In this document: piece by piece, positions 1,746-61,343 of the stretch
How the letters are laid out: the number at the start of each line of letters is the position of its first letter
Position numbering within the stretch: position 1 is the first letter of the stretch
Assembly: GCA_964016885.1 (NCBI GenBank)
Contig: OZ024742.1
Span: forward strand, 221,898,001-221,962,000
Source: Eledone cirrhosa
Lineage: Eukaryota
Direction of reading: 5' to 3'
Length of the DNA: 64,000 nucleotides
Notes under the pieces: generated by a model
Told to the model about the DNA's origin: nothing
What the model saw: only the letters and a program-made list of their open reading frames with translations
Databases searched by the model: none
Program-made: the position numbers and the translations under genes

Positions 1746-1756
1746 TATTATTATTA

Positions 1757-2060
1757 TTTGCATTTGCATTTATCTTGCTTTATGTTCATACGAGTTATCA
1801 CCAAGTCACAACCAGTGACATCAAGAGACAAGGTCCGCCATGTTCAAGAAAGAACATACATACACACACATGCATCTTTAGGTGTTTAGACTTGTGATGT
1901 ACTTATATTGACAGAATCTTCCTCAGTATATGGGCAGTTCCCATTAGTACTATCTTTTGTATTTCTCCTATACGCGGGTTTCCTGGGATTTGCGATAAGT
2001 AATCATTAGACCCCTTAGGTTTCATTCCTAGAGCGCCTACAACCACTGGTATTGTTTTAG

Positions 2061-2062
<2 letters not shown>
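1757..2062 (-). mobile_element. Dong/R4-like LINE family B, 3' fragment
   Basis: Near-identical reverse complement of ~28030-28328; bounded by (ATT)n on both sides. Confidence 0.92.
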
Positions 2063-2092
<30 letters not shown>

Positions 2093-2100
2093 CATTATTA

Positions 2101-4391: not shown

Positions 4392-4392
<1 letters not shown>
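3288..4392 (+). mobile_element. Tx1-like LINE, degraded 3' part of ORF2 plus 3' UTR
   Basis: Colinear with ~56596-57735 (LINFFRFHLKEKMRVEREVLP...ERWVRVASMVRVNGP); (ATT)n tail 4392-4445. Confidence 0.92.
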
Positions 4393-4439
<47 letters not shown>

Positions 4440-4445
4440 GTTATT

Positions 4446-5763: not shown

Positions 5764-5783
5764 ATTATTATTATTATTATTAT

Positions 5784-5901
5784 GGGTCTGAGTTCAAGTC
5801 CCGCCGAGGTTAACTTTGCCTTTGATCCTTACGAGGTCGATAAAATAAAGTACCAGTAATGCACTGGGATAATTGCTGGCCTTGTGCCAAAAGTAGAAAC
5901 A

Positions 5902-5949
<48 letters not shown>

Positions 5950-6218
5950 TGAGGCCGGTGGATTGGCAGTATCGGTAGAGGGTCGGACGCCATGCTTTGC
6001 AGCATAGAGTTACGGACCTTTATATATCTGAGTTCAAATCCCGCCGAGATTAACTTTGCCTTTCATCCTTACGGGGTCGATAAAATAAAGTACCAGTCAC
6101 GCACTGGTGTCGATCGAATCGACTTTCTCTTTTCCCAAAATTGCTGGCTTTGTGCCTATATTAGAAACCATTATTATTATTATTATTATTATTATTATAA
6201 TTATTATAATTATTATTG
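5784..6218 (+). mobile_element. Two tRNA-derived SINEs with long (ATT)n tails (5784-5950 truncated; 5953-6218 full)
   Basis: SINE consensus, with both A and B boxes in the second copy; its tail abuts the host splice acceptor. Confidence 0.92.
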
Positions 6219-6533: not shown

Positions 6534-6576
6534 CCTCCTCCTCCTCCTCCTTCTTCTTCTTCTTCTTCTTCTTCTT

Positions 6577-6607
<31 letters not shown>

Positions 6608-18947: not shown

Positions 18948-18978
<31 letters not shown>

Positions 18979-18985
18979 TAATAAT

Positions 18986-21900
18986 GTTTTCTTTATTAAC
19001 CACAAGGGTTTACATAAAGTAGACATTAAGGACAGTACAGGACAATACAGGACGGTACAAATGGGCATTTCTGCGTGTAAAATAAAACAGAGGATGTAAT
19101 AAAATAACAAAGAAAAATTCCCCAATAGGGGGGAGACTTCCGAGGGATATTTGTGGAGAAAGCCCATTAAAAGACCACAGTGACCCTGACCACCAGGGCA
19201 AGTGCCCTCTCCCAGTTTTCCACCTTTAATTTACAGATACGTACTCAGAGAAGGCCCATTCATTCGGGCCATACTTGCTTCTCTCACCCATCTTTCAACA
19301 AAATGCTGGGAAGAGAGCACTTCCCTCTCTACTCTGATTTTCCTTTTCAAATGAAATTTGAAAAAGTTAATCAGGGCATCACCGAAGAGGTAAGTGCTCG
19401 TCTTCAGCCCTTTCAAACGTGTCCACCATACTATCTCTTTCGCCATGGCCACCAGACAGATAAAAACTGCCTGCCCTTCCCGGCTAAAGGAAGAGGGCGG
19501 GGCAATCCTCACGATGGACTCAGCTGATAGCTGGATCCGTCCTACACGTGACAGCAGGTGTTCGACATAAACCCACAAGTCAGCAATGCTCGGACACTGG
19601 ACGAGTGCGTGCAGGACGGTTTCGTCGCCCTGTGCGTATCTCGGCCATGCCCCGCTGACGGCACCTCCATGCCTGTAGAGTTTATCCCAAACTGGCAAAG
19701 CTCCGCGGTAGCACTGCCAGGCCAGGGATTTCTGGAAGTTATCCATAGGCCCCGGCCCGAAAGTCCTTCCGAAGAGATTGGCTAGTTGATTTTCGTCGAC
19801 GCCTAGAGTTTCTCCAAGTACGTCGTCGCTCTTCCCCTCCTCTAATCCTCTATAGAACGCCAAGGTGGAGTTTCCACCGATCACATTGCCCGATTGGTCG
19901 AGGGCTGTGAGCGCCTGAAGACATTCCAGTCTCCAAGCGCTCCCTCTCGGTCTTCGCTTGACCCAGGACTGCAGCTCGGTCAAGGAGACGAGCTGGGGAA
20001 AGACGTGTCTAGCAAACGGCGACCACACCTGATCACCGTCGAGGAAGAGGTGGAGATGTCGTAGCCTGAGTGCGTGTCTGCGCATAATCAGCCACGGCAT
20101 GCCCAGCCCTCCACATAGCGGGTGTTGACAGCAGATGGACCACCTGACCATCGGAGCGCGTCCCTTCCACAAAAAGCGAAAGAGCAAACACTCCAGCGCA
20201 GTCAGGCGGGGCTTAGGACAAGGTACGACGGTCAGGCGGTAGTAGATGACGGACGCGATGTACGCGTTAGCCACCTCCGCTCGACCTTTCAGGGATAGCT
20301 TCCTCTCGGCCCATTTCTGGGTGAGAGAAGCCACCCTGCTCGTCACCTCGTCCCAGTTTTTGTCCGTCTGGAGGTCTGGACCGAACCAGACCCCTAGCAA
20401 TTTAACCGGTCCGTCCGTCCAGCGTCCGACGACGCTGTTGGACGGCATGGACCTGCCTCTCCAGGTGCCGAGCTGCAGGCCCACTGACTTTTCCTGGTTG
20501 ATCATTGCTCCTGTCACCGCTTCGTATTCTCTTAGTGTAGTGCCGATCGCCTCGATGTGTTTGGCGTTCGACACCACTACGGTGCAATCGTCGGCATATA
20601 CTGACACGGATCCTCCGCATCCTAGTTCGCGCGGGACCCCCCTCAACGTCTCCATTTTGTGCAGTAATGGCTCGAGAGTCAATACGTACAATAGGGACGA
20701 GAGGGGACATCCTTGGCGGACCGAGCGCATGATGTTGAACGGTTCCGAAAAGTGACCGTTCACTCTCACTACAGAGAAGATATTGCTGTGCATGGCAGCG
20801 ATCCAGCCTCTGAAGACGGGCCCAAAGCCAGCCGCCCTCAGGACTGCTGCTAGGTAACGATGGTCGACCCTATCGAAAGCTTTCGACTGATCTAAATTGA
20901 TCAAGGACCCACCCGTGCCAGGTTCCCTAGCTACCCTCTCTACGATGTATCGCATGAGGTGGAGGTTGTCGTCAATGGATCTGTCGGGAATGGCGCATGT
21001 CTGCGCCTCTCCCACCAGACCACCAACGACAAGCGCCAACCTCTTTGCTAGCACCTTGACCAAAATCTTGAACTCTGTGTTCAGCAGAGTTATGGGCCTA
21101 AAATTATCTATGTTATCCCCCTTGTTCGGATCCTTTCTCAGCAGCGCCACCGCTCCTCGGCTCACAGAGCTGGGAATTCTGCCGTTCTATTGCCAGTTGC
21201 AGTAGACGTCCGCCAAGAGGCCTCCGAACAAGTCTGGCATTTGTACGTAAAGTTCATAGGGCAGACCATCCAAACCAGGAGATTTATCCCTTGTGCAGCC
21301 CGTCATTGCCTCCCGTACTTCAACGGCTGTTATCGGCTTTTCGCAACACTCCGCCTCAGGGGACGAGAGCCGCGGCAGTCCGTCGAGGTAGACACTAAAG
21401 TCCATCCCTCGATCCGGCCCGCCGCTGCCCCCGAACAGTTGAGCGAAGTGTCGCTGAAAAGCTTCACACATTTGCCCGGGATCGAGTAGCATGCGCCCGT
21501 CATGGTCCACCAAAGACCGGATCGTGGCTTTGTTGCCACGACGCGCCTCCGCCACTCGGGCCCATTGAACGGCTTTCGTCCCCTCGTGTTTGAGAGCACG
21601 CACCCTAGCTCTGACAACGAAGCCTTCGTGCTTTGCATTGTAGAATTGGTCAAGGGCCAATTTCGCCGCAAGTACGTCGGCCACGATGCCTTTGCTAAGT
21701 GCCTCGTCTAATTTTCTAACTAGTTCTCCCTCTGCTCTATTTTTCTCTATTGCTAAAGCCTTACTAAACCTAATGGACTCTATTCTAATAGCTCTTTTCA
21801 GAGGAAACCACCACTTGTTGTTGACGATGGCCCCCGTCAACGCCCGCTTCACTAGTTCGCTAATCCGGTCTCTGTAGGCCTTGCGCGCTGGTAAGGACGC

Positions 21901-24798
21901 TTTTAGCTTCCAGTAGCCGGGTCCTCGTCTATGAAGCCTATCTAAGTCAAGCACACAGATCACGAATTTGTGGTCCGTGTAGCTGACTATCTTGAATAGA
22001 CCTATCTATTTCCCTACAAAATACTCTATCTAGATATGATCTGGATGACCCTATATGATTTGTCCAAGTCCACATTGGCACATTCGGGAATTCCAATCGG
22101 TACCTGTCAGACAGTTCAAAACGCCTGAGCAAGTTGGTGAGACTCTTGCACCCTCCTCTCCTATCCGCTAATCCCACACAGTCCCAGCGTTCATCTAAGA
22201 TCCCGTTCCAGTCGCCCACTAACACTAAAGAGCGGGACGTTCCAAGAAAGGTCTCCAGACGCCGGGGCATAGACGGCCACTAAACTGAAAGCCTGCCCGT
22301 CTCCGCTGGTCACGTCCAGCACCACCAACTTACCTTCTGGGTCCAGGAAGATGGCCCGTATGACGAGATCCAAACCTCTCCGAAAAAGCACAGCAATTCC
22401 TCCCCCCGATCCAGGACGGCTGGGAGATGCGTACACATCGTAGCCGCCGAAGATCTGTGCGAAGGCCCGTGCTTCGGAGATTCTGGTCTCGCTGATGGCC
22501 ACTACATCTATGTTTAGTGACCTGAGGTCGTTGAGCAGGTGGTCCTGCTTCCATGACGACCCCAAGCCACGCACATTTATGCTGCCTATTCTGAGTGAGG
22601 TCATGTTGAAATGGAGTGGAAAAGATGGGAAAGACCACTTACCTTAATTCTCGTAGAGGAAGGACGGTTTCTCCATCCTTTTCACTGCTTGTGGCCTCCT
22701 CAGGAAGGATGTCCTTATAAATCCTCCTGGAGAGTGCTTGTCGGAAGTCTCCGATGTCTTTAGGGAATTTTTGTTTTAGTGTCATGTACGTTTTCTGTGT
22801 GATGCGAGTGATTTGTATGTGTGGAGGTGGTGTGAACGTTTGGGTTGTTGTGTAAGTCTTTTTCTGTGATGCTGGTGTTGTGTTGGATGTAGTGTAATAA
22901 TTGGTTGTTGTTCAAATTTAATGCTGTGTAGTGTGTATCGTTTTGGTTGTTTTGTTTTGTTTGCGTTTGTTGTGGGTTTGTTTCTGTTTCGCTTTTTGGT
23001 GACTTTTGTGGTGTTGGTGATGGTGGTGTTGGAGTTAATGATGGTGATGGTGTTGGTGTTTGTGGTGATGGGGTTGGTGATGCTGGTGTGGATGGTGGCA
23101 TATCTGTCCTAACTTTTTTGTTTGATAGTTTATTTGTTTCCCTCTGTATTTTGTTTTTGGAGGGGGAAGGAAGAGGATTTTTTCTTTTTGGGTTTCTTTT
23201 TCTTTTTTTCTTTTTTCCTGATACCGTTTCCCACTCCTCGTCGTCACAATCTGTCTCCAGTTGCGATAGGTCGGGGAGTGGAAAATCCTCCACAGGCGTT
23301 GGTTTTGGTTGTGGCGTGGTGGATGGTGTAGGCGCTGGTGCTAGTTCTGGCGCGTTGGGTGGTGGTGGTGTTGGTTTTGCTACTGTTGTTGGGATTGTTG
23401 CTGTTACAGTTACTTTTGTTGTGGCTGCTACAGTTGTTGCTGCCATTTCTGCTGCTGGTGGTGTTGATGGTTGAGTCACTGGGGTTGGTAAGAGAGGTGG
23501 CATCAACCTTTTAGCCTGAGGCAGAAAGCCCTTAGGTGGGTTCCTTCACCACAAACGACACACCTAGGCCCTCTGCCCTCGACGATTACGGTGAGGTGGC
23601 TGCCGTCAGTGAGGTCTATTACCTCTGGGATCTCCTCAATGCTTTTTTGGTCCGCTTGGATCAGAAGCTTCATCCCAGATCCGGACCAGTTCTCCTGCTT
23701 TTCTTTCGCTATTTCGATTATCTTGGTGTTGGCTTCGATACCGGCGAGGACGGCAGCTATTAGGCAGGGAATTTCGATGGCCGGTGGAACGTGGGTCACC
23801 CTGATCTTCACGAGTCTCTGGCCACAATAGCTTGGGACGAGTGTGAAGTCGTCACTTCTTAATGGGGCCATGGAGTGTTCTCTGGCCTCCATTGGTTTTT
23901 CAAAGAACACGCCCACTGTTCCATATTTCTGCCCACGTCTGATGTGGGTTTTTTTTGCCCACACATGTCCCAAAGCTTTGTGGATTTGGGACTCGGATGC
24001 CCGTTCCACTCGGCGCGATTTTATGTTAATCGTCTGATAAGACACGATGCATAGGCGCCGTTGCTCCATTTTATTAGGTGTGTGTGTGGGGGGGGGGGGG
24101 GGGGGGGGGCTGACCCTGTACCCATCTTTCTTTACCATTTTTTTGGCTTCTTCTAATTCCTCCTGAGTTACCTGGAATGCTTCGCACTTTTTTGCTACTC
24201 TGGCAAAACTCAGGCTGGTTTTCTTAATTTCATTGTTGCTGTTGTTGTTATCGTTATTTTTGTTATTGTTAATTTTAGTTTCAGTAGTGGTGGTGGCGGC
24301 AGTGGTGATCGGTGTGGAAGAGTTCATTTTGGTTGAATTCATTTCGATATCACAAGTTAATTTATTTTTTTCTTTTGTTTCTGTTGTCGCTGTGGTGATG
24401 GTGGGGGTGGCGGCTTTAACACCTGCAGTCATTGGTAATGGCGGGAAATGAATGTCTGCCTGAGACAAATTTAAAATATTGCTACTGCTTATATTTTTAG
24501 TGTTAGCAAACGTAGTAATATTTACAATGGTGGTGTCGGTGTGAGGTGTTAGTTTGTGAGGAAGGTGTGACTCAGAGTCGTCCATGATTTTTCAAAGAAA
24601 AATCTTTGTTTGATAATTATAAAAGTTTAAATTTTGGGCTCAAGGCCCCAATCATTTTGAGTGTCCTTTTCAGAAAACAATGTATGTGCACTTATATACA
24701 GTTAACAATAAACATTTTCCATAAATAGCAATTTTAAACAACTGAAAATAACAAACCTTTGCGAAGCTCACGATAATACGATTTACTACGTAGGTCGC
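18986..24798 (-). mobile_element. Full-length but frameshifted Tx1-like LINE
   Basis: ORF1 pieces 23503-24585 and 22760-23506 (CVVCGEGTHLRAFC knuckle); ORF2 pieces 22604-19231 (APE: SINVRGL, ISETR, GDWN; RT: QGCPLS, YADD). (AAT)n at 18948-18985 and 24799-24852. Confidence 0.96.
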
Positions 24799-24850
<52 letters not shown>

Positions 24851-24852
<2 letters not shown>

Positions 24853-27800
24853 GAAACATCCCGAAAACAGAGGCTATATTGACAGTAACAAACTAGCCAA
24901 TATACGAAGAAATATTGTAAGAAAAAAGTTACTAACTGATATAGAAATTGATCAGATCAAGCTAGTAGCACAAAGTCAGCGAAGGGAAAATGAAGCATGT
25001 GTCAGTGAAAACGAGGTAAACTGTAACACTTCGAATCCCAGAGTTGGGGCGGAATCACTGGCAACAGAACAAATTAAAGAAAGGAGCGAAAAAGTGGAGG
25101 GAGTGCATGCTCAGGATGAAACTCCAAATGAAAATAATGAGATCGTAAATGATAAAGAAATGAATGAGAATGAACTTGCCAACTTGAAGGATGAAATTAT
25201 GATCGAATGGATGAAAATGAAAGAATCTGACATGGGGGAACGAGACACCCTCCCTAAGATCCAGAACTCCAAACAGAACCAAAAGATAATACACAAGACT
25301 AACATAATTCTCAAAAACATTATCATCACAAACAAACTAAGCATTACTGACTTAAATCATCTCTATTATGCATCGGCTAAAGTCACCACTCACTTATGTG
25401 GAGTGAAGATGAAAAAACAAAGGAATTCCCACAAGAAATCTACTTGGCAAGATAACATCAATCGCCAAATAAACCTTCTCCGATCTGACATAGAAATTTT
25501 AACAAACTATAAAGTAGGTGAACATGTTAAACAAACTAAACTTAGAAAATTGAAAAAAAAGTACAGTATAAGATCAACATGTGACATAGACATGCTGATA
25601 GAAACAATCAAGCAAAAAGTGTCGGCCAAAGCTGCTCGTATAAGGCGCTTTGAAAAACGATCTAGATTCTATAAGGACAATAATATGTTCAAAAACAACC
25701 AAAGAAACTTCTACAGAAAAATTGGTAAGTCAACAATAACTGCTAAATCAATACCACCCAAGGAGGAAGTGCAAGAATTCTGGGAAAAGATCTGGGCCGA
25801 AGAAAAAGTTCATAACATACATGCCCCATGGATAGACAGACAAATGAAAGAAACAGCTCACCTTGAAGAACAAACATGGGAAAATATAACAGTTGAATAG
25901 CTGCGCTTGGCTCTAAGAAAAACCAGCAAATGGAAATCCCCAGGAAAAGACAAAATACAAAACTTTTGGATAAATGCCTTCACAGAGTCTCATGAGCTGT
26001 TAGCCCAACTTTACAATGAAATAGTTAAGGAGCCAGAAAAGATACCATCATGGCTAGTTAACGGCATTACATTCCTGCTACCGAAGAATGATGAGACAAA
26101 CAATCCCAAAAATTACAGACCGATAACCTGCTTGACCACAATGTATAAAATTTTAACATCAGTCCTAACTGAATACACATATGACCACCTGATAACAAAT
26201 GACCTATTTCCCATTGAGCAGAAAGGGTGTAAACGAGGCTCATATGGCTGTAAGGATCAGCTTCTGGTTAACAAAATGATACTGGAAGATTGTCATAATA
26301 GACACAAAAATCTATCGATTGCTTGGATAGATTATAAAAAAGCATTTGATAGTTTGCCACACAGTTGGATTGAAAAATGTTTAGAGATTTTCAAAATATC
26401 CCCCGTTATCAGGAGGTTTTTGTCATTCAGTATGAGGACATGGAGAACGACACTCCTTTTGAATAGTGAAACAAAATCACTGGAAGCTGGAGAAGTTAAC
26501 ATTAATTGTGGAATTTTTCAGGGTGACTCTTTATCACCGCTTTTATTCTGCATCGCACTTATACCATTAAGTAAAATGCTCAATGAAACAAAACATGGAT
26601 ATAGAGTCTATGACAAAACCATTAATCACCTGTTCTACATGGATGACCTGAAACTATTTGCAAAAAATGATGAACAATTGCAAGGGCTATTATCCACTGT
26701 GAAGCAGTTCAGTGATGACATTAAAATGGAGTTTGGACTGGATAAATGCGCCAAAGCAACGTTCACCAGAGGAAAGCTGCTGAAGAGTTCAGACATTAAT
26801 CTTGATCGGGGGAACGTGATAAGAGAGCTTGATCAAGAACAAACTTACAAATATCTAGGTGTTTGTGAAGGAGACGGAATCAAGCACTCGACAATGAGGG
26901 AAAGGATAAGGAAGGAATGTTACCGCAGAGTCAGAGCAATCTTAAGAACGGAATTGAATGCAAGGAATAGGATCGATGCCATAAACACGCTTGCCATACC
27001 AGTAGTAACCTACAGTTACAATGTCATCAACTGGTCAAGCACAGAGATCCGTAGGCTTGATACAAAAATCCGAAAATTCTTAACCATGCACAGAATGCAT
27101 CACCCTAAGGCAGACATAGATAGAATATATCTCCCTAGGAAAGAAGGAGGACGTGGGTTAATCCAGTTAGACATTGCGTTGAAAACTGCAACAATTGGAT
27201 TATCCACATATCTAAGGGAATCACATGATTGGATGATCAAACTCGTTTTGAAACACGAAAGCACCAAAAGATCATATTCCATTACAAAAGATGCACAAAG
27301 ATACAGTAATGGACTACAAATTTCAGAAGTCCCATTTACTGCTGAAATGGAAAACACAGAAAAAGCAAAGCAGGTAAAAGTAACTGCAAAGAAAGAACTG
27401 CTACAGAAACTGGCTAAGAAATGGCAAGAAAAGCCTCTGTATGGAAAATACCCAGAGCGAGCTAACAATCCTGATGTTGACAAAACTTTAACCCATCAGT
27501 GGTTGGCATCCTCTGGACTGAAATCGGAGACTGAAGGACTGATTATATCCGCACAAGATCAGTGTCTGCCAACAAAAAATTACCAAGCCAACATAATAAA
27601 AAATGGGTGCAGCCCATTATGCCGTGTATGCAAAAAACAACCAGAGACCATTGACCATATAATTTCAATGTGCAGTCCTATAGCTCCAACCGAATACCTA
27701 AACAGGCATGACAGAGCTGCACAATACATACATTGGATAATGTGCAAGCATTTTGACCTGCCCCATCAAAAGAATTGGTGGGAGCATCAACCACCTCCCA

Positions 27801-28328
27801 TACTTGAAAAAGATCACATCTCAATCTTGTGGAACTTTAGCATCCAAACAGACCGAAAAATAGATGCAAATAGACCTGATATAATATTGAAGGACTTTCA
27901 AAGGAGGGTATGCCTGCTAATTGATATGTCTGTTCCAATAGACAAGAATGTATCTATAAAAACATTTGAAAAATTGAGCAAGTATAAGGACCTGGAGATA
28001 GAAATTGGAAAAATGTGGAAATTGAGAACTAAAACAATACCAGTGGTTGTAGGCGCTCTGGGAATGATACCTAAGGGGTCTAACGACTACTTATCGCAAA
28101 TCCCAGGAAACCCGCGTATAGGAGAAATACAAAAGATAGTACTAATGGGAACTGCCCATATACTAAGGAAGATCCTGTCAATATAAGTACATCACAAGTC
28201 TAAACACTAAGGATGCATGTGTGAATATGTGTGTTCTTTCTTGAACATGGCGGACCTTGTTGTCTCTTGAGGTCAGTGGTTGTGACTTGGTGATAACTCG
28301 TATAAACATAAAGCAAGATAAATGCAAA
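24851..28328 (+). mobile_element. Dong/R4-like RT-RLE LINE family B, slightly 5'-truncated, one in-frame stop
   Basis: One frame 24851-28186 broken only by TAG 25898-25900; RT (QGDSLSP, YMDD), CRVCKKQPETIDHIISMC, RHD, RPDII..LIDMSVP..KLSKY. (AAT)n tail to 28353. Confidence 0.96.
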
Positions 28329-28627
28329 TAATAATAATAATAATAATAATAATGTGATTTAGTCGATCATATCAACTCCAGTATTTATTATTATTATTTG
28401 AAACTTCCTTTGAATTCTGCTTCTTTCCCAAATCCTGTCGAGTGTCAAACTGAAACATGAGGTAAAATTTAATTGTACACACTGAACCCCAAATAAAAGG
28501 GTTGCGAAGCGAATTCCTTAATCGCACAATCAAACCCACCGATATAGATATATATTATATAAATTCTTTAAAACTATTTTATTATATTAAAAAACGTTGT
28601 TTGCTAGCCATTATTAGAAGAGAGTTT

Positions 28628-47449: not shown

Positions 47450-47670
47450 TAACAGATTAAAGTTTAAGCAAAGAATGGCTGCTTTGTTAGTTTCAGAAGA
47501 TCCCGTTAAGGGTGAAAGCAGCGATTCTTTGCTTAAACTTTAATCTGTTATTTTAATAAATATTTGCTCTACGGTTCTTATATTTTTGATATATATTTAT
47601 CCTTATCGAGCCCTCTTTGGATTTTAGTCTTCAAATTTATTATTATTACTATATATATATATATATATAT

Positions 47671-50682: not shown

Positions 50683-51175
50683 TTATCTGAGTTCAAATCC
50701 CGCTGAGCTTAACTTTGCCTTTCATCCTTACGGGGTCGATAAAATAAAGTACCAGTCACGCACATCGACTTCCCCCCACCCCCAAAATTGCTGGCCTTGT
50801 GCCTATATAAGAAACCATTATTATTATTTTTGTTGTTTGAATTTTTTTTAATTTCTAGCCCGATTTTGTTATAACCTGTTTACATGACCTAAACCCACTT
50901 TGTATCGTCCTGTACTGTTCTGTGCCGTCTCTAATGTTTTTCTTCGAGTTAGCCCTTGTGGCCAATAAAAAAACCATTATTATTATTATTATAGCAGGGC
51001 GGTGGATTGGCAGTATCGGTAGACAGTCGGACGCCATGCTTTCCAGCATAGTTACGTCCCTTTACGGTCTGAGTTCAAATCCCGTCGAGGTTAACTTTGC
51101 CTTTCATCCTTACGGGGTCGAAAAAATAAAGTACCAGTAATGTACTGGGTAATTGCTGGCCTTGTGCCAAAAGTA
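50683..51175 (+). mobile_element. SINE (50683-50825), Tx1-like 3' UTR stub (50826-50976), SINE (50997-51175)
   Basis: SINE consensus; stub ends GCCCTTGTGGCCAATAAAAAAACCATTATT. Confidence 0.9.
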
Positions 51176-51194
51176 TTATTATTGTTATTGTTAT

Positions 51195-51880
51195 TCCTTG
51201 AATCTCAGTCATTGATGTTGGTTAACTGGAAAGTCCGTTGGATTGAATATCAAGCCACTACCTGCAGCCTCAGATATTCAGGACGTATCGGAGGGTTCTT
51301 GCCGTTCCAAGCAAGCATGCCTTTTGAAGCGTTCCAAAAAGCGTGAAGGGGCCGATTTTCTTTAACCATCCCTGGAAGCCTTTGGAGATAGTCCCCAGTG
51401 CGCCTATGACAATCGGGATCACTTTGACTTCATGGCAGTTCCAAATCCTTTTCACCTCCCACTTTAGGTCCTGGTATCGGTTAATTTTCTCCCTCTCCTT
51501 CTCTTGCACTCTCGTGTCGAACGGGCAGGCCACATCCACAATCAGGCACGATCTTTTTTCTTTGTCCACAACCACCAGGTCAGGTCTATTGTGTTCCAGT
51601 TTTTTGTCCGTCTGTATCCTAAAATCCCACAGCACCTTCACCTGACTGTTCTCCATCACCGCCTCTGGCCTATGCTCATACCATTTCTCAGAATGTGGTA
51701 GATTGTTTACTTTGCACAGGTGCCAGTGGATCACCCTGCCCATCACATCGTGTCTCCAGCCCTTATAGTGGGTCTGGGCTAGGTGTTTACACTCGGACAC
51801 AATGTGAGCCACAGTCTCCTCTCTCTCTCCACAGATCCTGCACAGTGGGCTAGCCTCCTCCTTGTAGATATGGTGCTTCA
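51195..51880 (-). mobile_element. Dong/R4-like family A, 3' fragment with open frame
   Basis: CRICGEREETVAHIVSEC...RPDLVV..LIVDVACP..KINRY; (ATT)n on both sides. Confidence 0.95.
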
Positions 51881-52121
51881 ATAATATTATTATTATTATT
51901 ATTATTATTGACGAAAGTGGATGTACGTTTTTTGAAGCTCCGTGAGTAAGCAATTTTTTGAGGATTAATTGTAGAGAATTGTTTATTTTTTTGTACCGCT
52001 GAAGCATTATAAGACATTAATTTGTATCCTGTGAAGGAATAACTCATAATATTTGGGCCTTTTGGCCCAAATATTTGAACTTTATTTTGAAAAAAAATAA
52101 TAATTTTTTTCTCAAAAAAAC

Positions 52122-54032
52122 ATGGCGGAGCCACGCCCCCTAGAGGCGGGTCTGCTGTCGTGCAACGGCGACTTGAGCGTTGAGAGGAGAGGTGAGGCGA
52201 GGAGCGCCACCAGCACGAATGTGAGCAGCGACAGTGCCAGCACCAACGGGCCGAGCGGCGCGGAAGGTGGTAACAGCGACAACACCAACACCAACAAGCC
52301 GAACAGCGCAGAAGGTGGTAATAACGAGAGCACCAACAAAACGAACAGCACAGAGAGTAATAGTAGCGACAGCAACAGCACCAACAAGGCCAACAGCACA
52401 GAGGGTAACCACGACACAGGGGAGAACAACAACAGCAATAGCAGCAGCAACACCAACAAGAACAACAACAGTGACAACACCAACAAGAACACTTTCGCTG
52501 CTGTGGCAGCGGCTAAAAGGAGACCATGCTACAGCATCGACTTAACCAACAGAGAGGAAAAGTTGGCCCAGGCCTGGAAAATCATAAATCAAGAGCAGAC
52601 CTGGGCAAACTTAACTGTCCCGGCAGAAGCCATTGAGGCAGTGGAAAAAAGAACGGTGCATTTCAGATGCATCTCAGTAGAGACAAAGAGGGCAGCGATA
52701 ATCGCCCAAGCTGACATAGAAGCCGCACTGAAATACATCAGAGAGGACACAGACTTCATAGAGAGGGGCAGGCAATACGGCACCGTTTCGGTGCTGTTCA
52801 AGTCTGAAGCCCTCGCTGTGAAGCATTCAATGACCCCTTGCAAAACCAGCAAGGTCATAATGTACCCCTCCCACATGGGAAAACGAATAGCACGTGTGCG
52901 CATTCCCAGGATTCCACCAGGACTTGATATGTGGTGGCTCCTGGGTTGCGTAATCGTGGAAGGAACGGATACAGTCCCGGTAGAGGCAACGAGAACTGCC
53001 AGGGACGACTGGTCCGGGGTTGATCTGGAGATACTGCTCCAAATCAGACCCGAAAACGTAAAAACAATCCCGGACCACATCCGCCTCCAAAACGGGAGGG
53101 TGTTGCATATAATGACTGAGGGCAAAAGGCCGCATTGTTTCCTTTGTGGGGAAACGACACACTTGCGAGCCTTCTGCCCTCAACTGCCGAAAAGCGCAAG
53201 GGGTCGAAAGATTCCACTGCTGGCGACGCCGGGACAAGGACCACCAGCAACACCGTCAACAATGGAACCACCAAAATTGCACACCCAGGGGGGAAACGAG
53301 GAAAGCTCTCCCATTCCCCCTCCCCCCCAAAATACACACACGAACAAGAACATAAACACTCACTCAGACACAAACACGCTCACAGCCACAGACCCCTCAT
53401 CCTCCAGCAGTGAAGATGAGGGAAAACCAAAGTCCCCCAAAATACAAAAAACAAAACACAAAGAAAAAAGAAATCCACAAAGCACAAACACCCCCACAAA
53501 AAAAAATACACACACCACCCACACAAACATTTTCCCCACAGCATCACCAACACAACCACCAAAATCCCCCAAACGCAAACAAGCTAAACAGACACAAGAA
53601 CAAATAGACACACAAACATCAGAAACTACAGACACCCCACCCACAACAAACGCAGACACAATAGAAACAACACTAACAAAGCTATCACCACCACAATCAC
53701 ACGAACAAATAAAACCCGAGCAACAAAACATTAAAAACTTCGTGCTTGCCAGAAGGGCCAACAAGGAATTGATGGCCCATGTAGCACGAAGCACAAACAT
53801 CGAAAAAGACGGGGAAACATTTGAAGCGAGCACATTTCGCGTACCAGATAATTTGCTTCTGATGCGAATGTCGCTCGCTTCATACAAAGAAATTCGAAAG
53901 AGCTTTCCTCGGGATGTGGGAACCCCGAACGTAAAACCCACGTCAAGACTATTAAAGGGGTTCCCAAAAGAAACCCCACAAACCATGGAGGTCGAACCAC
54001 CCGACCTTCACAAGACCCCGGAAGGTAAGTAA
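52122..54032 (+). CDS. Tx1-like ORF1p (gag-like nucleic-acid-binding protein)
   Basis: 636 aa; CCHC knuckle CFLCGETTHLRAFC; central region homologous to ORF1 at 23503-24585; low-complexity flanks. Confidence 0.92.
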   Translation: MAEPRPLEAGLLSCNGDLSVERRGEARSATSTNVSSDSASTNGPSGAEGGNSDNTNTNKPNSAEGGNNESTNKTNSTESNSSDSNSTNKANSTEGNHDTGENNNSNSSSNTNKNNNSDNTNKNTFAAVAAAKRRPCYSIDLTNREEKLAQAWKIINQEQTWANLTVPAEAIEAVEKRTVHFRCISVETKRAAIIAQADIEAALKYIREDTDFIERGRQYGTVSVLFKSEALAVKHSMTPCKTSKVIMYPSHMGKRIARVRIPRIPPGLDMWWLLGCVIVEGTDTVPVEATRTARDDWSGVDLEILLQIRPENVKTIPDHIRLQNGRVLHIMTEGKRPHCFLCGETTHLRAFCPQLPKSARGRKIPLLATPGQGPPATPSTMEPPKLHTQGGNEESSPIPPPPQNTHTNKNINTHSDTNTLTATDPSSSSSEDEGKPKSPKIQKTKHKEKRNPQSTNTPTKKNTHTTHTNIFPTASPTQPPKSPKRKQAKQTQEQIDTQTSETTDTPPTTNADTIETTLTKLSPPQSHEQIKPEQQNIKNFVLARRANKELMAHVARSTNIEKDGETFEASTFRVPDNLLLMRMSLASYKEIRKSFPRDVGTPNVKPTSRLLKGFPKETPQTMEVEPPDLHKTPEGK

Positions 54033-54061
54033 ACCTTTCCTCTCCCATTCATCCTGCCAGC

Positions 54062-57000
54062 ATGGCCATAAGAGTAGGAAGTTTAAATGTTCGTGGCCTG
54101 GGGTCGCCCTGGAAGCAAGGTCACTTGCTCAACGACCTCAGGTCACTAGGAATGGATGTAATTGCCATCAGCGAGACCAGAATTTCCGACACACGCGCAC
54201 TGGCGCCGATTTTCGACGATTATCAGATCTTTGCATCTGTTAGTCGGCCGGGAATGGGAGGTGGAGTGGCTGTGCTGTTTAGGAAATGTCTGGATCTCGA
54301 GGTAAGGTCAATCTTCCGGGATCCTGACGGAAAGTTGGTGGTCCTGGACGTGAGCAATAGCGAAGGTGGTGCCTTTAGACTGGTGGCCGTCTACGCCCCT
54401 ACTGGGGCCGGTCGGCCGGACTTCTTTAGGCGCCTGGAAAACTTTCTGCTTACGTCTCGCCCTTTACTGTTAATAGGGGATTGGAATGGCATCTTAGAAG
54501 CACGCTGGGATTGTGTGGGAGTATCTGATAGGAGCGGGGGGTGCAAAAGCCTCAAGTACCTGATCAGCCAGTTTCAACTGTCTGACAGGTACCGACTAGA
54601 TTTCCCTAATGCGCCAGTATGGACCTGGACCAATCGCATAGGGTCATCTAGATCGTACATAGATAGGATTTTCATTAGGAAAAGAGATAGAAATAGTGTA
54701 GGATGTCCACATTTTAAAACGGTTGCCTATTCAGATCACAAGCTTGTGATCTGTATGGTCGACCTAGATAAGACACGTAGGTTAGGACCTAGCTACTGGA
54801 AGCTAAACATGTCGTTTCCGGCACGTAAAGCTTACAGGGACCGGGTCAACAACTTAGTTAAGCAAAAGTTGACAGGGGGGGTTGTCAACAACAGGTGGTG
54901 GGGGGCACTCAAAAGAGAGATTAGAGCAACCTCGATAGGATTTAGCAAAGAAGTAGCAATAGAGAAAAATAGAAAGGAGGAGGGGCTGATAGCTAAGTTA
55001 GACGAGGCTATTTGTAGTGGCATTGCAACAGACGTGCTAGCGGCGAGAATGGCACTAGACCATTTCTTCAATGCGAAACACGAAGGTTGCATTGTCAGAG
55101 CTAAGGCGCGTGCTCTGAGGAACGAGGGAAGCAAAGCTGCCCGATGGGCTCGCTTTGCAGAGACGCAGCGTGGAAATAAAACCACAATTCGGTCTTTGAC
55201 GGATCGAGATGGACACGAACTGAGCGATTCCAAGCGGATGTGTGAGGCCTTTCGCCAGCACTTTGCTCGATTGTTCGGGAGGATGGGTGAGTCGGAGACG
55301 GCGGCGGACTTCAGTCCCTACCTCGACGGCTTGCCACGCCTCTCGACGGCCGACGCTGAGCGCTGCGAAGAGCCGATAACATCAGCCGAAATTCAGGACG
55401 CCCTTGTCGGCTGCTCGAGTCGCAAGTCACCCGGTTTGGATGGTCTGCCCTACGAGCTTTACGTAAATATGCCAGACTTGTTCTCCGATCTCCTCGAAGC
55501 GCTCTACTGCAACTGGCAGCAGAACGGGAGCATTCCCAGTTCTGTGAGCCGTGGCGTAGTGACGCTGATAAGGAAAGACGAGAACAAGAGGGACACACTA
55601 GATAATTTCAGGCCCATAACCCTGCTCAACACAGAGTTTAAGATTTTGGCCAAGGTGTTAGCGAAAAGGTTGGCGCTTGTCGTCAAAGATTTGGTTGGGG
55701 AGGCGCAAACTTGCGCAATCCCGACCAGGTCCATACACGACAACCTCCACCTCATGCGATACATCATAGAGAGGGTTGGGTGCAAACCTGGCTTCGGTGG
55801 GGCTCTGATCAATTTAGATCAATCGAAAGCATTCGATAGGGTCGACCATCGGTACTTGGAGGCTGTCCTCGAGGCGGCTGGCTTCGGCCCCGTCTTCAGA
55901 AGCTGGATCGCTGCAATGTACAGCGGCATCCGCTCGGTGGTCAAAGTTAATGGCCACCTCTCGGAACCGTTTCAGATCTCTCGATCGGTCCGTCAAGGGT
56001 GCCCTCTCTCCTCACTTCTGTACGTATTGACTCTTGAGCCTCTACTGCGGAAGCTGGAGTTGTTGCAGGGCATCCCGCTCGAACCGGGACGTAGAAAGGC
56101 TGCGTCCGCTTATGCGGACGACATCACCGTGATGGTGTCGGACACCTCGGAAATCGAGGTGATCCGCACCCATTTGGAGGAATATGAAAGGTTGACGGGA
56201 GCAAAACTTAACCCGGAAAAGTCGGTGGGCTTGCAGCTCGGCACCTGGAGAGGCAAGTCCATGCCGTCCAACAGCGTCGTTGGGCGCTGGACAGACGGAC
56301 CGGTAAAGTTGCTCGGGGTTTGGTTCGGACCAGACCTCCAGGTGGATAAGAATTGGGACGAGGTGACGAGCAGGATAGCCAACCTCACCCAGAAATGGGC
56401 TGAGAGAAAGCTATCACTGAAAGGGCGGGCGGAGGTGGCGAACGCGTACATCGCGTCCGTCATCTACTACCGCCTGACCGTCGTGCCTTGCCCCCGTCCA
56501 CGCCTCGCCAATTTGGAACGGCTCCTTTTCAAATTTTTGTGGAGGGGACGGGTCCCGTTGGTGAGGCGGTCCATCTGCTGCCAGCACCCTCTTCGTGGAG
56601 GGCTGGGCATGCCGTGGCTAATGATGCGCAGACATGCGCTGAGGCTGCGACATCTCCAGATATTTTGCCTAAACGGTGAACAGGTGTGGTCGCCGTTTGT
56701 TAGACGGGCCTTTCCGCAGCTCATCTCTTTGACTGAGCTGCAGTCCTGGGTCAAGAAGAGACCGAGACTGGGCGACTGGCATCTGGAATGTTGCCAGGCG
56801 CTCACTGCACTCTGCAAGGTGGGCAATGCGGTCAGTGGAACTTCCACTCAAGATTTCTATAGAGGATTAGTGGAGGGCAAGTGCGATGACGTACTAGGAG
56901 AGGCTCTGGGCGTCAACGAAGTAGAACTGACCAGTATGTTCCGGAGGACTTTCGAGCCGGGGACGATGGATAACTTCCAGAAATCCCTCGCTTGGCAGTG

Positions 57001-57481
57001 CTACCGGGGGGCGCTGCCGGTTCGGGATAAACTCTACAGGCACGGAAGTGCTGTCAGACGAACCTGCCCGAGATGCGCGCAGAGCGACGAAACCGTTCTG
57101 CACGCACTCGTCCAGTGTCCGTGCATTGCTGACTTGTGGGGTTATGTCGAACAGCTATTGTCGCGTGTAGAACGGATCCGGCTATCGTCCGAGTCCATAG
57201 TGAAGATTGACCCGCCGCCTTCTTTTGGTCAGGAAGGGCAGGCAATTTTCCTCTGCCTGGTGGCAGTAGCGAAAGAGGTTGCATGGTGGACCAGGTTGAA
57301 AGGACTGAAGACAGACACTTTTCTCTTCGGCCAATCCCTCATCAACTTCTTCAAGTTTCACTTGGAAAGGAAGGTGAGGGTGGAGAAAGAAGTGCTGCCC
57401 CCCAGTACATTTACTGAAAGGTGGGTGAATGTGGCGAGAATGGCCCGCGTGAGTGGGCCTACTCTGATCATGCGCCTGTAG
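54062..57481 (+). CDS. Tx1-like ORF2p: APE endonuclease + reverse transcriptase + CCHC
   Basis: 1139 aa; SLNVRGL, ISETR, VYAP, GDWN, IDRIF, SDH; KSPGLDGLP, RPITLLN, DQSKAFDRVDH, QGCPLS, YADD; CPRC..ETVLHALVQC. Confidence 0.97.
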   Translation: MAIRVGSLNVRGLGSPWKQGHLLNDLRSLGMDVIAISETRISDTRALAPIFDDYQIFASVSRPGMGGGVAVLFRKCLDLEVRSIFRDPDGKLVVLDVSNSEGGAFRLVAVYAPTGAGRPDFFRRLENFLLTSRPLLLIGDWNGILEARWDCVGVSDRSGGCKSLKYLISQFQLSDRYRLDFPNAPVWTWTNRIGSSRSYIDRIFIRKRDRNSVGCPHFKTVAYSDHKLVICMVDLDKTRRLGPSYWKLNMSFPARKAYRDRVNNLVKQKLTGGVVNNRWWGALKREIRATSIGFSKEVAIEKNRKEEGLIAKLDEAICSGIATDVLAARMALDHFFNAKHEGCIVRAKARALRNEGSKAARWARFAETQRGNKTTIRSLTDRDGHELSDSKRMCEAFRQHFARLFGRMGESETAADFSPYLDGLPRLSTADAERCEEPITSAEIQDALVGCSSRKSPGLDGLPYELYVNMPDLFSDLLEALYCNWQQNGSIPSSVSRGVVTLIRKDENKRDTLDNFRPITLLNTEFKILAKVLAKRLALVVKDLVGEAQTCAIPTRSIHDNLHLMRYIIERVGCKPGFGGALINLDQSKAFDRVDHRYLEAVLEAAGFGPVFRSWIAAMYSGIRSVVKVNGHLSEPFQISRSVRQGCPLSSLLYVLTLEPLLRKLELLQGIPLEPGRRKAASAYADDITVMVSDTSEIEVIRTHLEEYERLTGAKLNPEKSVGLQLGTWRGKSMPSNSVVGRWTDGPVKLLGVWFGPDLQVDKNWDEVTSRIANLTQKWAERKLSLKGRAEVANAYIASVIYYRLTVVPCPRPRLANLERLLFKFLWRGRVPLVRRSICCQHPLRGGLGMPWLMMRRHALRLRHLQIFCLNGEQVWSPFVRRAFPQLISLTELQSWVKKRPRLGDWHLECCQALTALCKVGNAVSGTSTQDFYRGLVEGKCDDVLGEALGVNEVELTSMFRRTFEPGTMDNFQKSLAWQCYRGALPVRDKLYRHGSAVRRTCPRCAQSDETVLHALVQCPCIADLWGYVEQLLSRVERIRLSSESIVKIDPPPSFGQEGQAIFLCLVAVAKEVAWWTRLKGLKTDTFLFGQSLINFFKFHLERKVRVEKEVLPPSTFTERWVNVARMARVSGPTLIMRL

Positions 57482-57733
57482 GCTGGTGAATTCGAGAAGG
57501 AGAGGGGTGCCCTTCCCGGGTGCCCTAGGAGCGTCGGGTGGCTCAGGACTGGTGGGGTGCTTGAGTCAACCCTGGGTGGTGATCCCTCTTATTGGGGAAC
57601 TTTCATTGTTGTATTTTTATTGTTATTTTGTTTTTTTTGTTATTTATACTTACTCGATCTCTATGTAAACCCCCACTGTCCCTGTCTATTGTGTTGTCCC
57701 CTATATGTCGGCCCTTGTGGCCAATAAATGAAA

Positions 57734-57783
<50 letters not shown>

Positions 57784-60700
57784 GTTCTTTGAGTCTCAGT
57801 CATTGATGTCATTTAACTGGAAAGTTTGTTGAAATGAATATCAAGCCGCCACGTGCAGCCTCAGATATTCAGGACGTATCGGAGGGTTCTTGCTGTTCCC
57901 AGTAAGCATGCCTTTTGAAGTGTTCCAAAAAGCGGGGCTGGACTAATCTTCTTTAACCATCTTTGGAAACTCTTTGAGATAGTACCTAGTGCGTCTATGA
58001 CAATTTCATGGCAGTTCCAAATTCTTTTTAACTCCCACTTTAAGTCCTGGTATCAGTTAATTTTCTCCCTCTCCTTTTCTTGCATTCTCGTGTCAAATGG
58101 GCAATTTACATCTACAATCAGGCACGATCTTTTTTCCTTGTCCCAAACCACCAGGTCAGGCCTATTGTGTTCTAATTTCTTGTCCGTCTGTATCCTAAAA
58201 TCCCATAGCACCTTCACCTGATCGTTTTCTATCATCGACTCTGGCTAATGTTCATACCACTTCTCCGAATGTGGTAAATTGTTTACTTTGCATAGATGCC
58301 AGTGGATCACCCTGCCTATCACATCATGTCTCCAGCCCTTATAGTGAGTCTGGGCTAGGTGTTTACACTCGGATACAATGTGAGCCACAGTCTCCTCTCT
58401 CTCTCCACAGATCCTACACAGTGAGCTAGCCTCCTCTTTGTCAATATGGTGTTTCACTCACTTCGTTCTGAGGGCTTGCTCTTGCGCAGCCATTAGCATT
58501 CCTTCTGTAGCCTTTTTAAGGTCTCCTCTTTTTAACCAGTTCCATGTCTGTGGTTCTCTAAATTCTGTTTTCTTAAAGAAGGTGCTATGAAGGGATTTTT
58601 CATGAAGGTTGCTCTTCCTCCTTGTTGTTATTTCCTCCTTGGACATCCCCTGGTCTATTGTCTTCTCCTTCAGTACGATTTTGAGCATTGGCTCCCTACT
58701 GTCTGTCACGTATTTGTGCAGGTTGTTTTTCTCCATCTGAACACAGTCCTCTATGCTGATAAGACCTCTTCCACCTTCAGATCTCCTTAAGTAGAGTCTA
58801 TTGACATCACTCCTCTTGTGGAACATGTTGTAGATAGTCAATATCTTCCTAGTCTTCCTATCCATTTCTTTTTGTTCAGTAACATTCCATTTCAGAATTC
58901 CCGCACTGTATCTAATAATAGACACAGCTCGGGAATTTATTGCACTTATAACATTCCTACTATTCAGATGTGATTTTAGTACGCTCCTTACTCTCCTTAT
59001 CTACTCAGACCTTATCAATTGCTTCATTTTTTTTGTTCTTGATGTCATCTGCCTCCAGAACACCTAAATATTTGTATCCCTCTTCAGTGTCAATTTCCTT
59101 TATCATCTCACCTGTTGGTACCTGGATTCTGTTGCTTCTGCTCAATTTACCCCTCTTCATCACTAGGACTCCACACTTATTAATACCAAATTCCATACAT
59201 ATATCATTGCTGAAAATACGGACAGTGTCAACAAGTACATCCAACTCCTTCTCACTCTTCCCAAAGAGTTTAAGATCGTCCATGAAGAGGAGGTGATTGA
59301 TGGTAAGCTCTCCTCTTCCCAACTTGTATCCTGCTCTCACTTTTCGCAATATAACGGACAGGGGTATCAGGGCAAGGACAAACAGCAGAGGGGCAAACTA
59401 TCTCCCTGGAAGATACCTCTCTTGATCTTCACGCCTCCCAAGGATTCTCCACCTGATGTTAACTCTGTTTCCCAGGATTTCATACTTTTGCTCAACAACT
59501 GTCTGATGTTATCTGCCACCTTCAAGATCTCTAGGCTTTTGGTTATCCAAGAATGAGGTACCATGTCGAATGCCTTTTTGTAATCTATCCATCCCATGGC
59601 AAGACCAGTGTGCCTCCTCTTGCAATTCCTCATTACCATCTTATCAATAAGTAACTGGTCTTTTGTACCACGGGACTTCTTTCGGCATCCTTTCTGTTCG
59701 TCCGGTAACAAGTTGTTTATGTGGAGGTGATTGTAGATTTCTCCAGACACAATGCTTGTGAACAGTTTCCACATTACGGACAGATATGTGATAGGCCTAT
59801 AGTTTCATTACCCTTGATTCGGTCTTTCATTACCAGAATTGTGGTACCTTTTGTCAACCACTCTGGTACTTCACCCGACATCAAGCAGTCATTGAACATG
59901 GTTGTCAGTTTCGGGTGGAGGGATGTTATGTTTTTAATCCAATACCCTTGCACACCATCTGGGCCTGGTGATTTCCAGTTGGTTAGTCTTTTGGCCTGCC
60001 CTTTAAGAGTTTCAACTGTGATACTCAAATCAGGTTGTTGGTGTGCTTGTTCACTAATCTCCTTTTGAACTGTCTTAATCCGCACTGCCTGACTATTATG
60101 TTCAACATCCTGCTCCCTTATTCCACCCCAGAATGTCTTAGTCTGTTCCGCCTCAGGGATCACGTCGTTGCATCTTTCTTTCCCTTCAAGCTGTCCAAAC
60201 AACATCTTCTGGCTGTTGTCAAACATGCGGTTCTGTCTATACTGACTGACTCTGTTCTCATACCGCCTAATCTTTGCACTTTTTGCTACAATGCTTTGCT
60301 TCAGTTCCTCTATGATAATATTTAGCCTTTTCCCCCTAGTTTTGTATTTTGTTTCCAATCTATCTTTAGTGTCTATGTTTTCTAATGTCCCATTCAGTAA
60401 GGACTCAAGCTTTCCAATGTCTTTTCTCATTTCCTTGATTTGACCATTCAGTCGTTTCTTCCACCAAGGTTCTGATCTTTCTTGTTTGTTGTTTCCTCTC
60501 GTTTTTATACCCAGTAATTTCCTCACCGCATTTGCGGTTGCTTTGAGGATATTGTTGCATTGGTTCCTCGCCTCAAAGTATGGGATGACTTTGTTTTCCT
60601 TAGCTGTTGTTTCATTTAACTTTTTCATGTCTACAAATCTTAGGTTCATAGGTTTTCCACTATCATTGTTCATTTCATCTACCATTAAGTTCAGGATATC

Positions 60701-61290
60701 AACCAAATCTTGCCCTAGCCCGTCAGCATTCATTTCCTCAAAGGCCGTATCTTTGTTCCAGATGTTATTTATTTCAGCATTCAGATCATTGTCTGCTTCG
60801 GATGCTTCCCCAGGTCTCTCAACCTCTTCACCTTCATTTCCCACTGGCTCGTTTGCCTGACATACTCCACTCTCCATTTCCAACTTAATCTCTCTGCTCA
60901 GTTCCTCCAGTTCCAACTCGCTTATCCATCCATTAGTTCTTATTACCCGAGCCTGTCCGGCCAATTTTTGTTCATCTAATTTAACTAGACCAATCTCGTT
61001 CCAGATGTTATGCATCCGTTTCCTATAGCCTTTTCCCTTGGGGTTACTCTTCAGGTAACATTTCATGACAGTTCTATTCAATTCTTTCGTCCAGTTGGTT
61101 CTTGTCCCATTCCTTCTTCTTCCTCCATCACCAGCAGTATTTGGATGACAGCCAGGTCCCTGCTGCTGGGCCAGGGAGCACTTGCTGGGTAAGAGTCTTT
61201 CACGTGACTTTTCAGTCTCCTTTTCACCGTTATTCGAACTGTTCGTCATTTAAACACTCATATCGAAGATTGGTGAATGTATGGTTACAT
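57784..61290 (-). mobile_element. Near full-length, frameshifted Dong/R4-like LINE family A
   Basis: ATG at 61249; N-terminal WTKELNRTVMKCY...GYRKRMHNIW; RT ([17 protein letters not shown]); zinc finger; RLE; stop at 57861; (ATT)n at both ends. Confidence 0.95.
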
Positions 61291-61343
61291 ATTATTATTG
61301 AAATCTTTATTATTATTATCATTATTATTATTACATATATATT

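What the first reader, a model, noticed from the sequence alone, without database searches (positions are those of the whole stretch)
50683..61332. Strand-partitioned retroelement pile-ups on one microsatellite
Seen order: SINE(+), Tx1 stub(+), SINE(+), Dong(-), Tx1(+), Dong(-), each separated by (ATT)n. The same rule holds at 0.6-6.2 kb and mirrored at 18.9-28.4 kb (Tx1 -, Dong +, (AAT)n). APE-type elements and the SINE read into ATT; RLE-type elements read into AAT. Known: Dong targets TAA repeats. Inference: two unrelated endonucleases nick opposite strands of the same repeat and each insertion regenerates the target, giving self-growing arrays. The old Dong C fragment (18220-18945) abutting (AAT)n is an exception.
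Basis: partly seen in the sequence, partly recalled or inferred. Interest (0 to 1): 0.75.

Follow-up and report, generated by a model that had tools for sequence, protein, structure and literature searches.

The report
Two retrotransposons stack on ATT repeats
Two unrelated kinds of jumping gene sit in the same ATT repeats across this animal genome, almost always facing opposite ways, and pile up into stacks, likely because each targets the repeat from a different strand and duplicates a piece of it when it lands.

Summary
The six-element order at 50.7-61.3 kb is real, and the rule holds genome-wide. Of 324 full-length starts of the window's young Tx1-like LINE, 315 follow (ATT)4. Of 20 young Dong copies, 18 follow (AAT)n, including 13 of 14 truncated ones. 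On chromosome C1, 44 of 87 Tx1 ends lie within 15 kb of a Dong end (local null about 15), and 40 of the 44 are on opposite strands. Of 22 spacers in tandem Tx1 arrays, 21 are 15 or 18 bp, which fits target duplication.

(1) 'APE reads ATT' is family-specific: a sister Tx1 family piles up on (TATC)n. (2) The SINE uses short ATTAT sites, rarely arrays. (3) Neighbours are like-with-like, not alternating, and some tandems look like local duplications.

Opposite-strand nicking is inferred, not shown. The closest known system is SART/TRAS on silkworm telomere repeats. I found no ATT- or TATC-targeting Tx1 in 10 paper searches; Repbase was not searchable. This scan found the same rule four times before, on other DNA of this genome.

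The parts
50684..50816 (+). 5'-truncated SINE; no ATT array on its 5' side
50817..50828 (+). (ATT)4 spacer
50829..50975 (+). Tx1-type 3'UTR stub (older ATT-type family)
   Evidence: 81% to the Tx1 3' end at 1621-1737
50976..50990 (+). (ATT)5 spacer
50991..51174 (+). near-full-length SINE with tRNA-type A/B boxes (box consensus recalled)
51175..51193 (+). imperfect ATT/GTT spacer
51194..51880 (-). Dong (family A) 3' stub, 5'-truncated
51881..51909 (+). (ATT)8 spacer, 5' flank of the full-length Tx1-like element
51910..57735 (+). full-length young Tx1-like LINE (family A): ORF1 52122-54032 with a CCHC knuckle, ORF2 54062-57481 with APE endonuclease, RT and zinc finger; both frames open; 7 substitutions from the nearest other copy examined
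57736..57783 (+). (ATT)16 shared by the Tx1 3' end and the Dong 3' end (tail to tail)
57784..61306 (-). Dong (family A), truncated in its 5'UTR, frame broken
61307..61332 (+). ATT run closing the array; (AAT)n 5' flank of the Dong copy
18948..28353 (.). mirrored array: (AAT)n, Tx1 family B- 18986-24798, (TAA)18, Dong family B+ 24853-28326 with RT, CCHC and RLE motif, (AAT)9
878..6217 (.). third array: SINEs+, Tx1 stubs+, three Dong stubs-; exceptions at 1406-1616 and 3287/3289

Best explanation
Young Tx1-like (APE) and Dong (RLE) retrotransposon families both sit in (ATT)n/(AAT)n repeats in opposite orientations, likely because each is target-specific for this repeat and primes reverse transcription from a nick on the opposite strand, and each landing likely duplicates 15-18 bp of repeat, leaving a usable target on both sides so that stacks grow. 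SHOWN: orientation rule, repeat on the 5' side (also for truncated Dong), clustering, constant spacers, independent origin of many stacked copies, domain content. FROM ESTABLISHED TPRT MECHANISM: an element reading into ATT was primed on the AAT strand and one reading into AAT on the ATT strand. INFERRED: that the endonucleases make this choice, and that the spacer is a target-site duplication. The SINE likely borrows ATT-type Tx1 machinery with a looser ATTAT target (about 55%), which would seed new sites. Local DNA duplication likely adds some tandem copies. No cooperation between Tx1 and Dong is needed.
For: 315 of 324 exact Tx1A 5' ends follow (ATT)4. 498 of 615 reverse-strand full-length Dong 5' ends have AATAATA within 8 bases; forward hits were multiply counted and dropped. 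Young Dong B 5' junctions: 18 of 20 AAT, 13 of 14 truncated; Dong A: 11 of 16 visible AAT, 0 ATT. Truncated copies cannot carry a 5' leader, and silkworm Dong RNA self-cleaves at its exact 5' end from a TAA co-transcript (PMC3774820, passages). 44 of 87 Tx1B ends lie within 15 kb of Dong A, against 15.5 (max 27 in 5000 runs) with 100-kb jitter; 40 of 44 opposite; 111 of 271 opposite at 50-500 kb. 19 of 20 young Dong and 14 of 18 young Tx1A copies touch another Tx1/Dong, against 14 of 58 blind arrays (47% for arrays of 24 bp or more). 21 of 22 tandem spacers are 15 or 18 bp; a 10-copy array has nine identical (ATT)5 spacers between copies from several branches of the family tree. The endonuclease hairpin reads N-[RH]-I-G-S in 4 ATT-type copies and [NH]-R-[SN]-G-[TSQ] in 4 TATC-type copies; the branch to the TATC family is about four times longer in the endonuclease tree than in the RT tree. 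That loop shapes target choice in L1 (PMC1950540, abstract and Discussion).
Against: No nicking or empty-site data. Tx1B is loose: of 12 visible truncated 5' junctions, 4 are ATT, 1 AAT and 7 neither by the rule (by eye, one is ATT past the alignment edge and three are related triplets). For Tx1A only full-length 5' ends were testable, so an RNA-borne ATT leader is not excluded. One true violation at C1:24.84 Mb (Dong+ then Tx1+). Sister pairs in several tandem arrays (C1:80.98, C2:108.5, C3:29.2 Mb; two identical units at C1:423.4 Mb) point to duplication, not insertion. The endonuclease comparison rests on one target switch. PMC1950540 notes that RNA-DNA complementarity may add specificity. 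The young Dong sample comes from C1 only.
Confidence: 0.75

Rival explanations
1. RNA-tail pairing sets site and strand. The endonucleases nick AT-rich DNA loosely; only nicks whose 3' end pairs with the element's AUU or AAU tail are extended, so the strand rule follows from tail sequence.
For: SINE and off-target Tx1B junctions begin with about 5 nt of ATTAT microhomology (46 of 59 SINE 3' ends). Tail and target switch together in the TATC family. L1 nicking in vitro is less strict than integration (PMC1950540, abstract and Discussion).
Against: Endonuclease loop and branch length track the target. Tx1A 5' flanks have 6 or more units in 18 of 18 copies, stricter than 5-nt pairing would need. 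PMC4494074 (passages) states that the endonuclease mainly determines the target. The two explanations can act together.
Confidence: 0.2
2. Only Dong is target-specific. Tx1 and the SINE merely bring ATT tails, into which Dong inserts antisense.
For: Dong's TAA target is known (PMC3812793, passages); Tx1B truncated junctions are often not ATT; the SINE rarely sits in arrays.
Against: 315 of 324 Tx1A starts follow (ATT)4, with many different upstream neighbours; 6 of 7 and 15 of 16 starts of two other Tx1 families seen in fetched loci do too.
Confidence: 0.03
3. Stacks come mainly from DNA duplication, composite transposition or assembly artefacts, not repeated insertion.
For: Sister or identical neighbours in several Tx1A tandems; like-with-like neighbours, p 0.0035, or 0.047 without four tandems.
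Against: Mixed arrays join different families with different truncation points and ages. In the window, the two Tx1-ATT-Dong junctions have halves of 79% and 94% identity. The 10-copy array spans 0-42 differences between units and several tree branches.
Confidence: 0.02

Closest known systems
SART and TRAS (R1 clade) on silkworm telomeric repeats
   Same: Two retrotransposon families insert into one simple repeat in opposite orientations and form arrays (PMC10088271, passages).
   Different: Both are R1-clade APE elements at telomeres. Here an APE and an RLE element share an interstitial microsatellite at thousands of loci, with a SINE passenger.
Dong, DongAg, DongBg (R4 clade)
   Same: TAA microsatellite target, also in a mollusc (PMC3812793, passages); single RT-CCHC-RLE protein; Dong-R4 is recently active in Octopus vulgaris (PMC13282606, Table 1).
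   Different: Very high copy number here (9992 exact family-A 3' ends) and co-occupancy with Tx1. No 5' HDV-like ribozyme was found with a rough descriptor.
Kibi, Koshi and crocodilian Tx1 families
   Same: Tx1-clade APE elements specific for microsatellites: (TC)n, (TTC)n, (TTCC)n, (TTTC)n (PMC4494074, passages and section 15).
   Different: Targets here are (ATT)n and (TATC)n, not named in the text I read (its figure 3 labels and supplements were not seen).
SINEU mobilised by Tx1-Mar (crocodilians)
   Same: A SINE sharing a Tx1 family's target more weakly, with tandem copies flanking a TSD read as sequential insertion (PMC4494074, passages).
   Different: The target there is a Mariner transposon; here it is a short ATTAT site, and the SINE is far more abundant (160 hits in 760 kb).

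Membership tests
Dong / R4 clade (RLE non-LTR) | RT followed by a CCHC finger and a restriction-like endonuclease motif | tested here: met
   Dong B: RVT_1 and zf-RVT; CCHC and RPD..D..K motif; all 5 PDB hits are R2-type proteins, best aligned over 7-707 of 761 aa
Dong / R4 clade (RLE non-LTR) | Insertion into (TAA)n in the sense orientation | tested here: met
Dong / R4 clade (RLE non-LTR) | RT phylogeny within R4 next to named Dong elements | not tested
   no named R4 references were fetched
Dong / R4 clade (RLE non-LTR) | HDV-like ribozyme at the 5' end | tested here: inconclusive
   no credible Rfam hit; a rough recalled descriptor found none on four Dong 5' ends
L1 group (APE non-LTR) | Two ORFs; ORF2 = APE, RT, C-terminal zinc finger; closest to L1 ORF2p | tested here: met
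   L1 ORF2p E 4e-57 against R2 E 3e-22
Tx1 clade | RT phylogeny with named Tx1 elements rather than L1 | not testable with these tools
the 97 homologues carry no Tx1 name; the Atlas gave no answer.
Tx1 clade | Target preference in over 20% of flanks (criterion of PMC4494074) | tested here: met
   family A 315 of 324; TATC family 93 of 313
SART/TRAS-type telomeric system | R1-clade elements in telomeric repeats at chromosome ends | tested here: not met
   interstitial ATT arrays along chromosome arms; works like it, but is not a member
Tx1-mobilised SINE | 3' tail shared with the partner LINE | tested here: inconclusive
   last 30 nt resemble 3 of 4 Tx1 ends (shuffle p 0.004 or less; Tx1B 0.08-0.11), not Dong or the AAG-tailed LINE; short, AT-rich, chosen after viewing
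MetaSINE superfamily | 66-bp Meta domain after the tRNA head | not tested
   resemblance recalled only; the alignment figure of PMC4824008 was not visible

The most novel reading that the evidence does not exclude
A genome-wide shared-target ecosystem: ATT-specific Tx1 families (a target new for the clade, with a sister lineage switched to TATC through its endonuclease loop), Dong and a Tx1-driven SINE turn ATT sites into self-perpetuating, two-stranded landing pads. These capture most new insertions, sometimes grow from one end in age order (the 10-copy array), and would be natural sources of sense and antisense transposon RNA.
Probability: 0.3. Interest if true: 0.75.

Novelty: new variant of a known kind. 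Interest (0 to 1): 0.55.

Why it matters
It gives a concrete cause for transposon hotspots, which PMC13282606 reports in Octopus vulgaris without a mechanism: young copies land beside old ones because insertion likely keeps the target. It also offers a natural pair of close, recently active relatives with different targets (ATT and TATC). That makes a long-open question directly testable: does the endonuclease or the RNA tail choose the site? Such arrays also matter in practice, for annotation and for microsatellite markers.

Tried and rejected
General one-ended growth: the 10-copy array has an age gradient (rho 0.95), but in two of the smaller arrays the upstream copy is the older one, so polarity is not a rule. 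Alternation or pairing of Tx1 and Dong: neighbours are like-with-like. Three apparent orientation violations among 60 neighbours were SINEs matched through a SINE fragment inside my Dong reference. Of four same-strand Tx1/Dong pairs, three were examined: two are borders between arrays of opposite polarity and one is a true violation; the fourth was not examined. A different LINE partner for the SINE: four tail hits without an obvious SINE body were AT-rich or SINE remnants. HDV-like ribozyme search: nothing credible; one weak descriptor hit in a Tx1 5'UTR. Expression: no RNA holder listed. The AAG-tailed LINE gave no usable 5' junctions in the blind blocks.
Full report
SETTING. The window is G000:C3:221898001-221962000 of a 3.0-Gb genome. 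It is probably an octopus; this is inferred from its repeat make-up and from active Dong-R4 and L1-Tx1 families in O. vulgaris (PMC13282606), and was not tested. Family names A, B, C are mine.

OBSERVATION. The order SINE+, Tx1 stub+, SINE+, Dong-, Tx1+, Dong- with ATT spacers is exactly present at 50684-61332. The Tx1-like element at 51910-57735 has two open frames, with APE, RT and zinc finger in ORF2, and its best solved relative is L1 ORF2p. Dong B has RT, CCHC and an RLE motif and matches R2-type proteins. The two other arrays follow the rule. Exceptions are an antisense SINE at 1406-1616, a repeat-less junction at 3287/3289, and the Dong C border at 18945.

THE 5' FLANK TEST. A 3' repeat could be the element's own tail, so the 5' side decides. 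Exact whole-genome counts: 315 of 324 Tx1A starts follow (ATT)4; 498 of 615 reverse-strand Dong starts have AATAATA within 8 bases, forward hits being multiply counted and dropped. With a fixed rule on visible junctions: young Tx1A 19 of 20 ATT; young Dong B 18 of 20 AAT (13 of 14 truncated); first 30 Dong A on C1, 16 visible, 11 AAT and 0 ATT; a further Dong B set, 6 visible of 30, 4 AAT; first 30 Tx1B on C1, 12 visible, 4 ATT, 1 AAT, 7 neither. Dong is therefore strictly targeted, Tx1A strictly (full-length copies only), and Tx1B loosely.

BLIND SAMPLE AND CLUSTERING. In 760 kb taken at round coordinates, 58 arrays had Dong 12 of 12 minus, Tx1 7 of 7 plus and SINE 17 of 18 plus relative to ATT. 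Counting only 5' junctions: 5 of 5, 2 of 2, 10 of 11. 79 of 116 sides were unassigned. On C1:1-53.6 Mb, using the 87 Tx1B and 100 Dong A ends listed there (of 7811 and 9992 genome-wide), 44 Tx1B ends lie within 15 kb of a Dong A end. Nulls give 3.4 (uniform) and 15.5 (100-kb jitter, max 27 in 5000). 40 of the 44 are opposite, against 111 of 271 at 50-500 kb. 14 of 58 blind arrays touch a Tx1 or Dong (38% length-weighted, 47% for arrays of 24 bp or more). 19 of 20 young Dong copies do (p 6e-6 against 47%), and 14 of 18 young Tx1A after removing two SINE mis-calls (a by-eye count of 15 of 19 gave p 0.004). Arrays beside elements are longer (p 0.0015), which explains part of the excess. Regional accessibility or selection may explain more; the Dong sample is from C1 only.

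DOES INSERTION REGENERATE THE TARGET? In ten Tx1A tandem arrays, 21 of 22 spacers are 15 or 18 bp. The 10-copy array has nine (ATT)5 spacers and the same five units upstream, and its copies differ by 0-42 substitutions and fall on several branches of the family tree. This fits repeated insertion with duplication of the whole short array. Off-target Tx1B and SINE copies have only ATTAT or so after their 3' end, so the long 3' repeat looks mostly target-derived. No empty allele was seen, so the duplication is inferred. Sister pairs in other arrays suggest local duplication as a second route.

LIMITS OF THE RULE. A sister family, about 79% identical in RT and 59-66% in the endonuclease, ends in (ATCT)n and stacks on TATC; 93 of 313 starts follow TATCTATC. 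The target is thus a family trait. The endonuclease hairpin differs between target types, and the branch to the TATC family is 0.22 in the endonuclease tree against 0.05 in the RT tree; this is one switch with few sequences. The SINE is abundant (160 hits in 760 kb). Of 59 3' ends matched by pattern, 46 are followed by ATTAT but only 2 by four or more units; 18 have an upstream copy of 9 bp or more, 13 of them beginning ATTAT. Its last 30 nt resemble three of four Tx1 ends and not Dong. Neighbours are assortative: young Dong touches 23 Dong and 9 Tx1, young Tx1A touches 13 Tx1 and 5 Dong.

MECHANISM. Under target-primed reverse transcription (established knowledge), the observed orientations mean first-strand priming on opposite strands. 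Endonuclease specificity is the likelier cause (0.75), with RNA-tail pairing the main rival (0.2); both may act. Stacking needs no cooperation, only a shared target that survives insertion.

LITERATURE. Searches. None showed an ATT- or TATC-targeting Tx1, or Tx1/Dong co-occupancy. Seen: PMC4494074 (passages, section 15), PMC3812793, PMC4640811, PMC3747384, PMC4824008, PMC10088271, PMC3774820 and PMC9115989 (passages), PMC13282606 (parts 1-2 of 3: main text), PMC1950540 (abstract, Discussion), PMC13295347 (abstract). Kojima and Fujiwara 2004 and Xiong and Eickbush 1993 were not read and are cited through these. Figures, supplements, Repbase and Dfam were not seen and could already record this target. 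The Meta-domain and RTE labels and the A/B-box consensus are recalled. Four earlier notes of this scan report the same rule elsewhere in this genome; they are not counted as support.

VERDICT. Real and genome-wide. The parts are known kinds (Dong on TAA, microsatellite-specific Tx1, SART/TRAS-like opposite use of one repeat), but the combination and the Tx1 targets appear unreported. New variant of a known kind; interest 0.55.

Noticed in passing
blind block G000:C4:30000001-30013100 (L165-L166); C4:200028000-200038000 (L135-L136): A sister Tx1-like family with (ATCT)n 3' ends piles up head to tail on TATC repeats; 93 of 313 full-length starts follow TATCTATC.
   Followed up: partly
G000:C1:423361889-423420173 (L297-L303): Ten head-to-tail Tx1A copies with nine identical (ATT)5 spacers; divergence and frame decay rise from the 5' to the 3' end of the array.
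   Followed up: yes
window 47600-47670; several blind blocks: An unidentified repeat ends in a fixed (TTA)4 followed by (TA)n. It accounts by eye for about 9 of 58 blind ATT arrays, and Dong has inserted into it (L167, L268), so it may seed arrays.
   Followed up: no
window 6534-8400: A decayed LINE on the minus strand, weakly RT-like, ends in (AAG)n; the RTE label is recalled. (AAG)n/(CTT)n runs also flank some Dong and Tx1B junctions (L117, L219, L260, L262).
   Followed up: partly
L197-L216: Young Tx1A copies picked by their 3' end were nearly all full-length (19 of 20 with a 5' start), unusual for a LINE; young Dong copies were mostly truncated (14 of 20).
   Followed up: no
L197, L198: Copies whose 3' end matches family A but whose upstream part matches other Tx1 families: apparent chimeras between Tx1 families.
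   Followed up: no
window 17417-17600 and 28354-28500: The same short repeat plus Dong C 3' end occurs on both sides of the mirrored array, perhaps an old local duplication.
   Followed up: partly
G000:C1:36.941-36.966 Mb (L312-L314): Mixed array of about 24 kb with about eleven elements, all Tx1 plus and Dong minus.
   Followed up: yes
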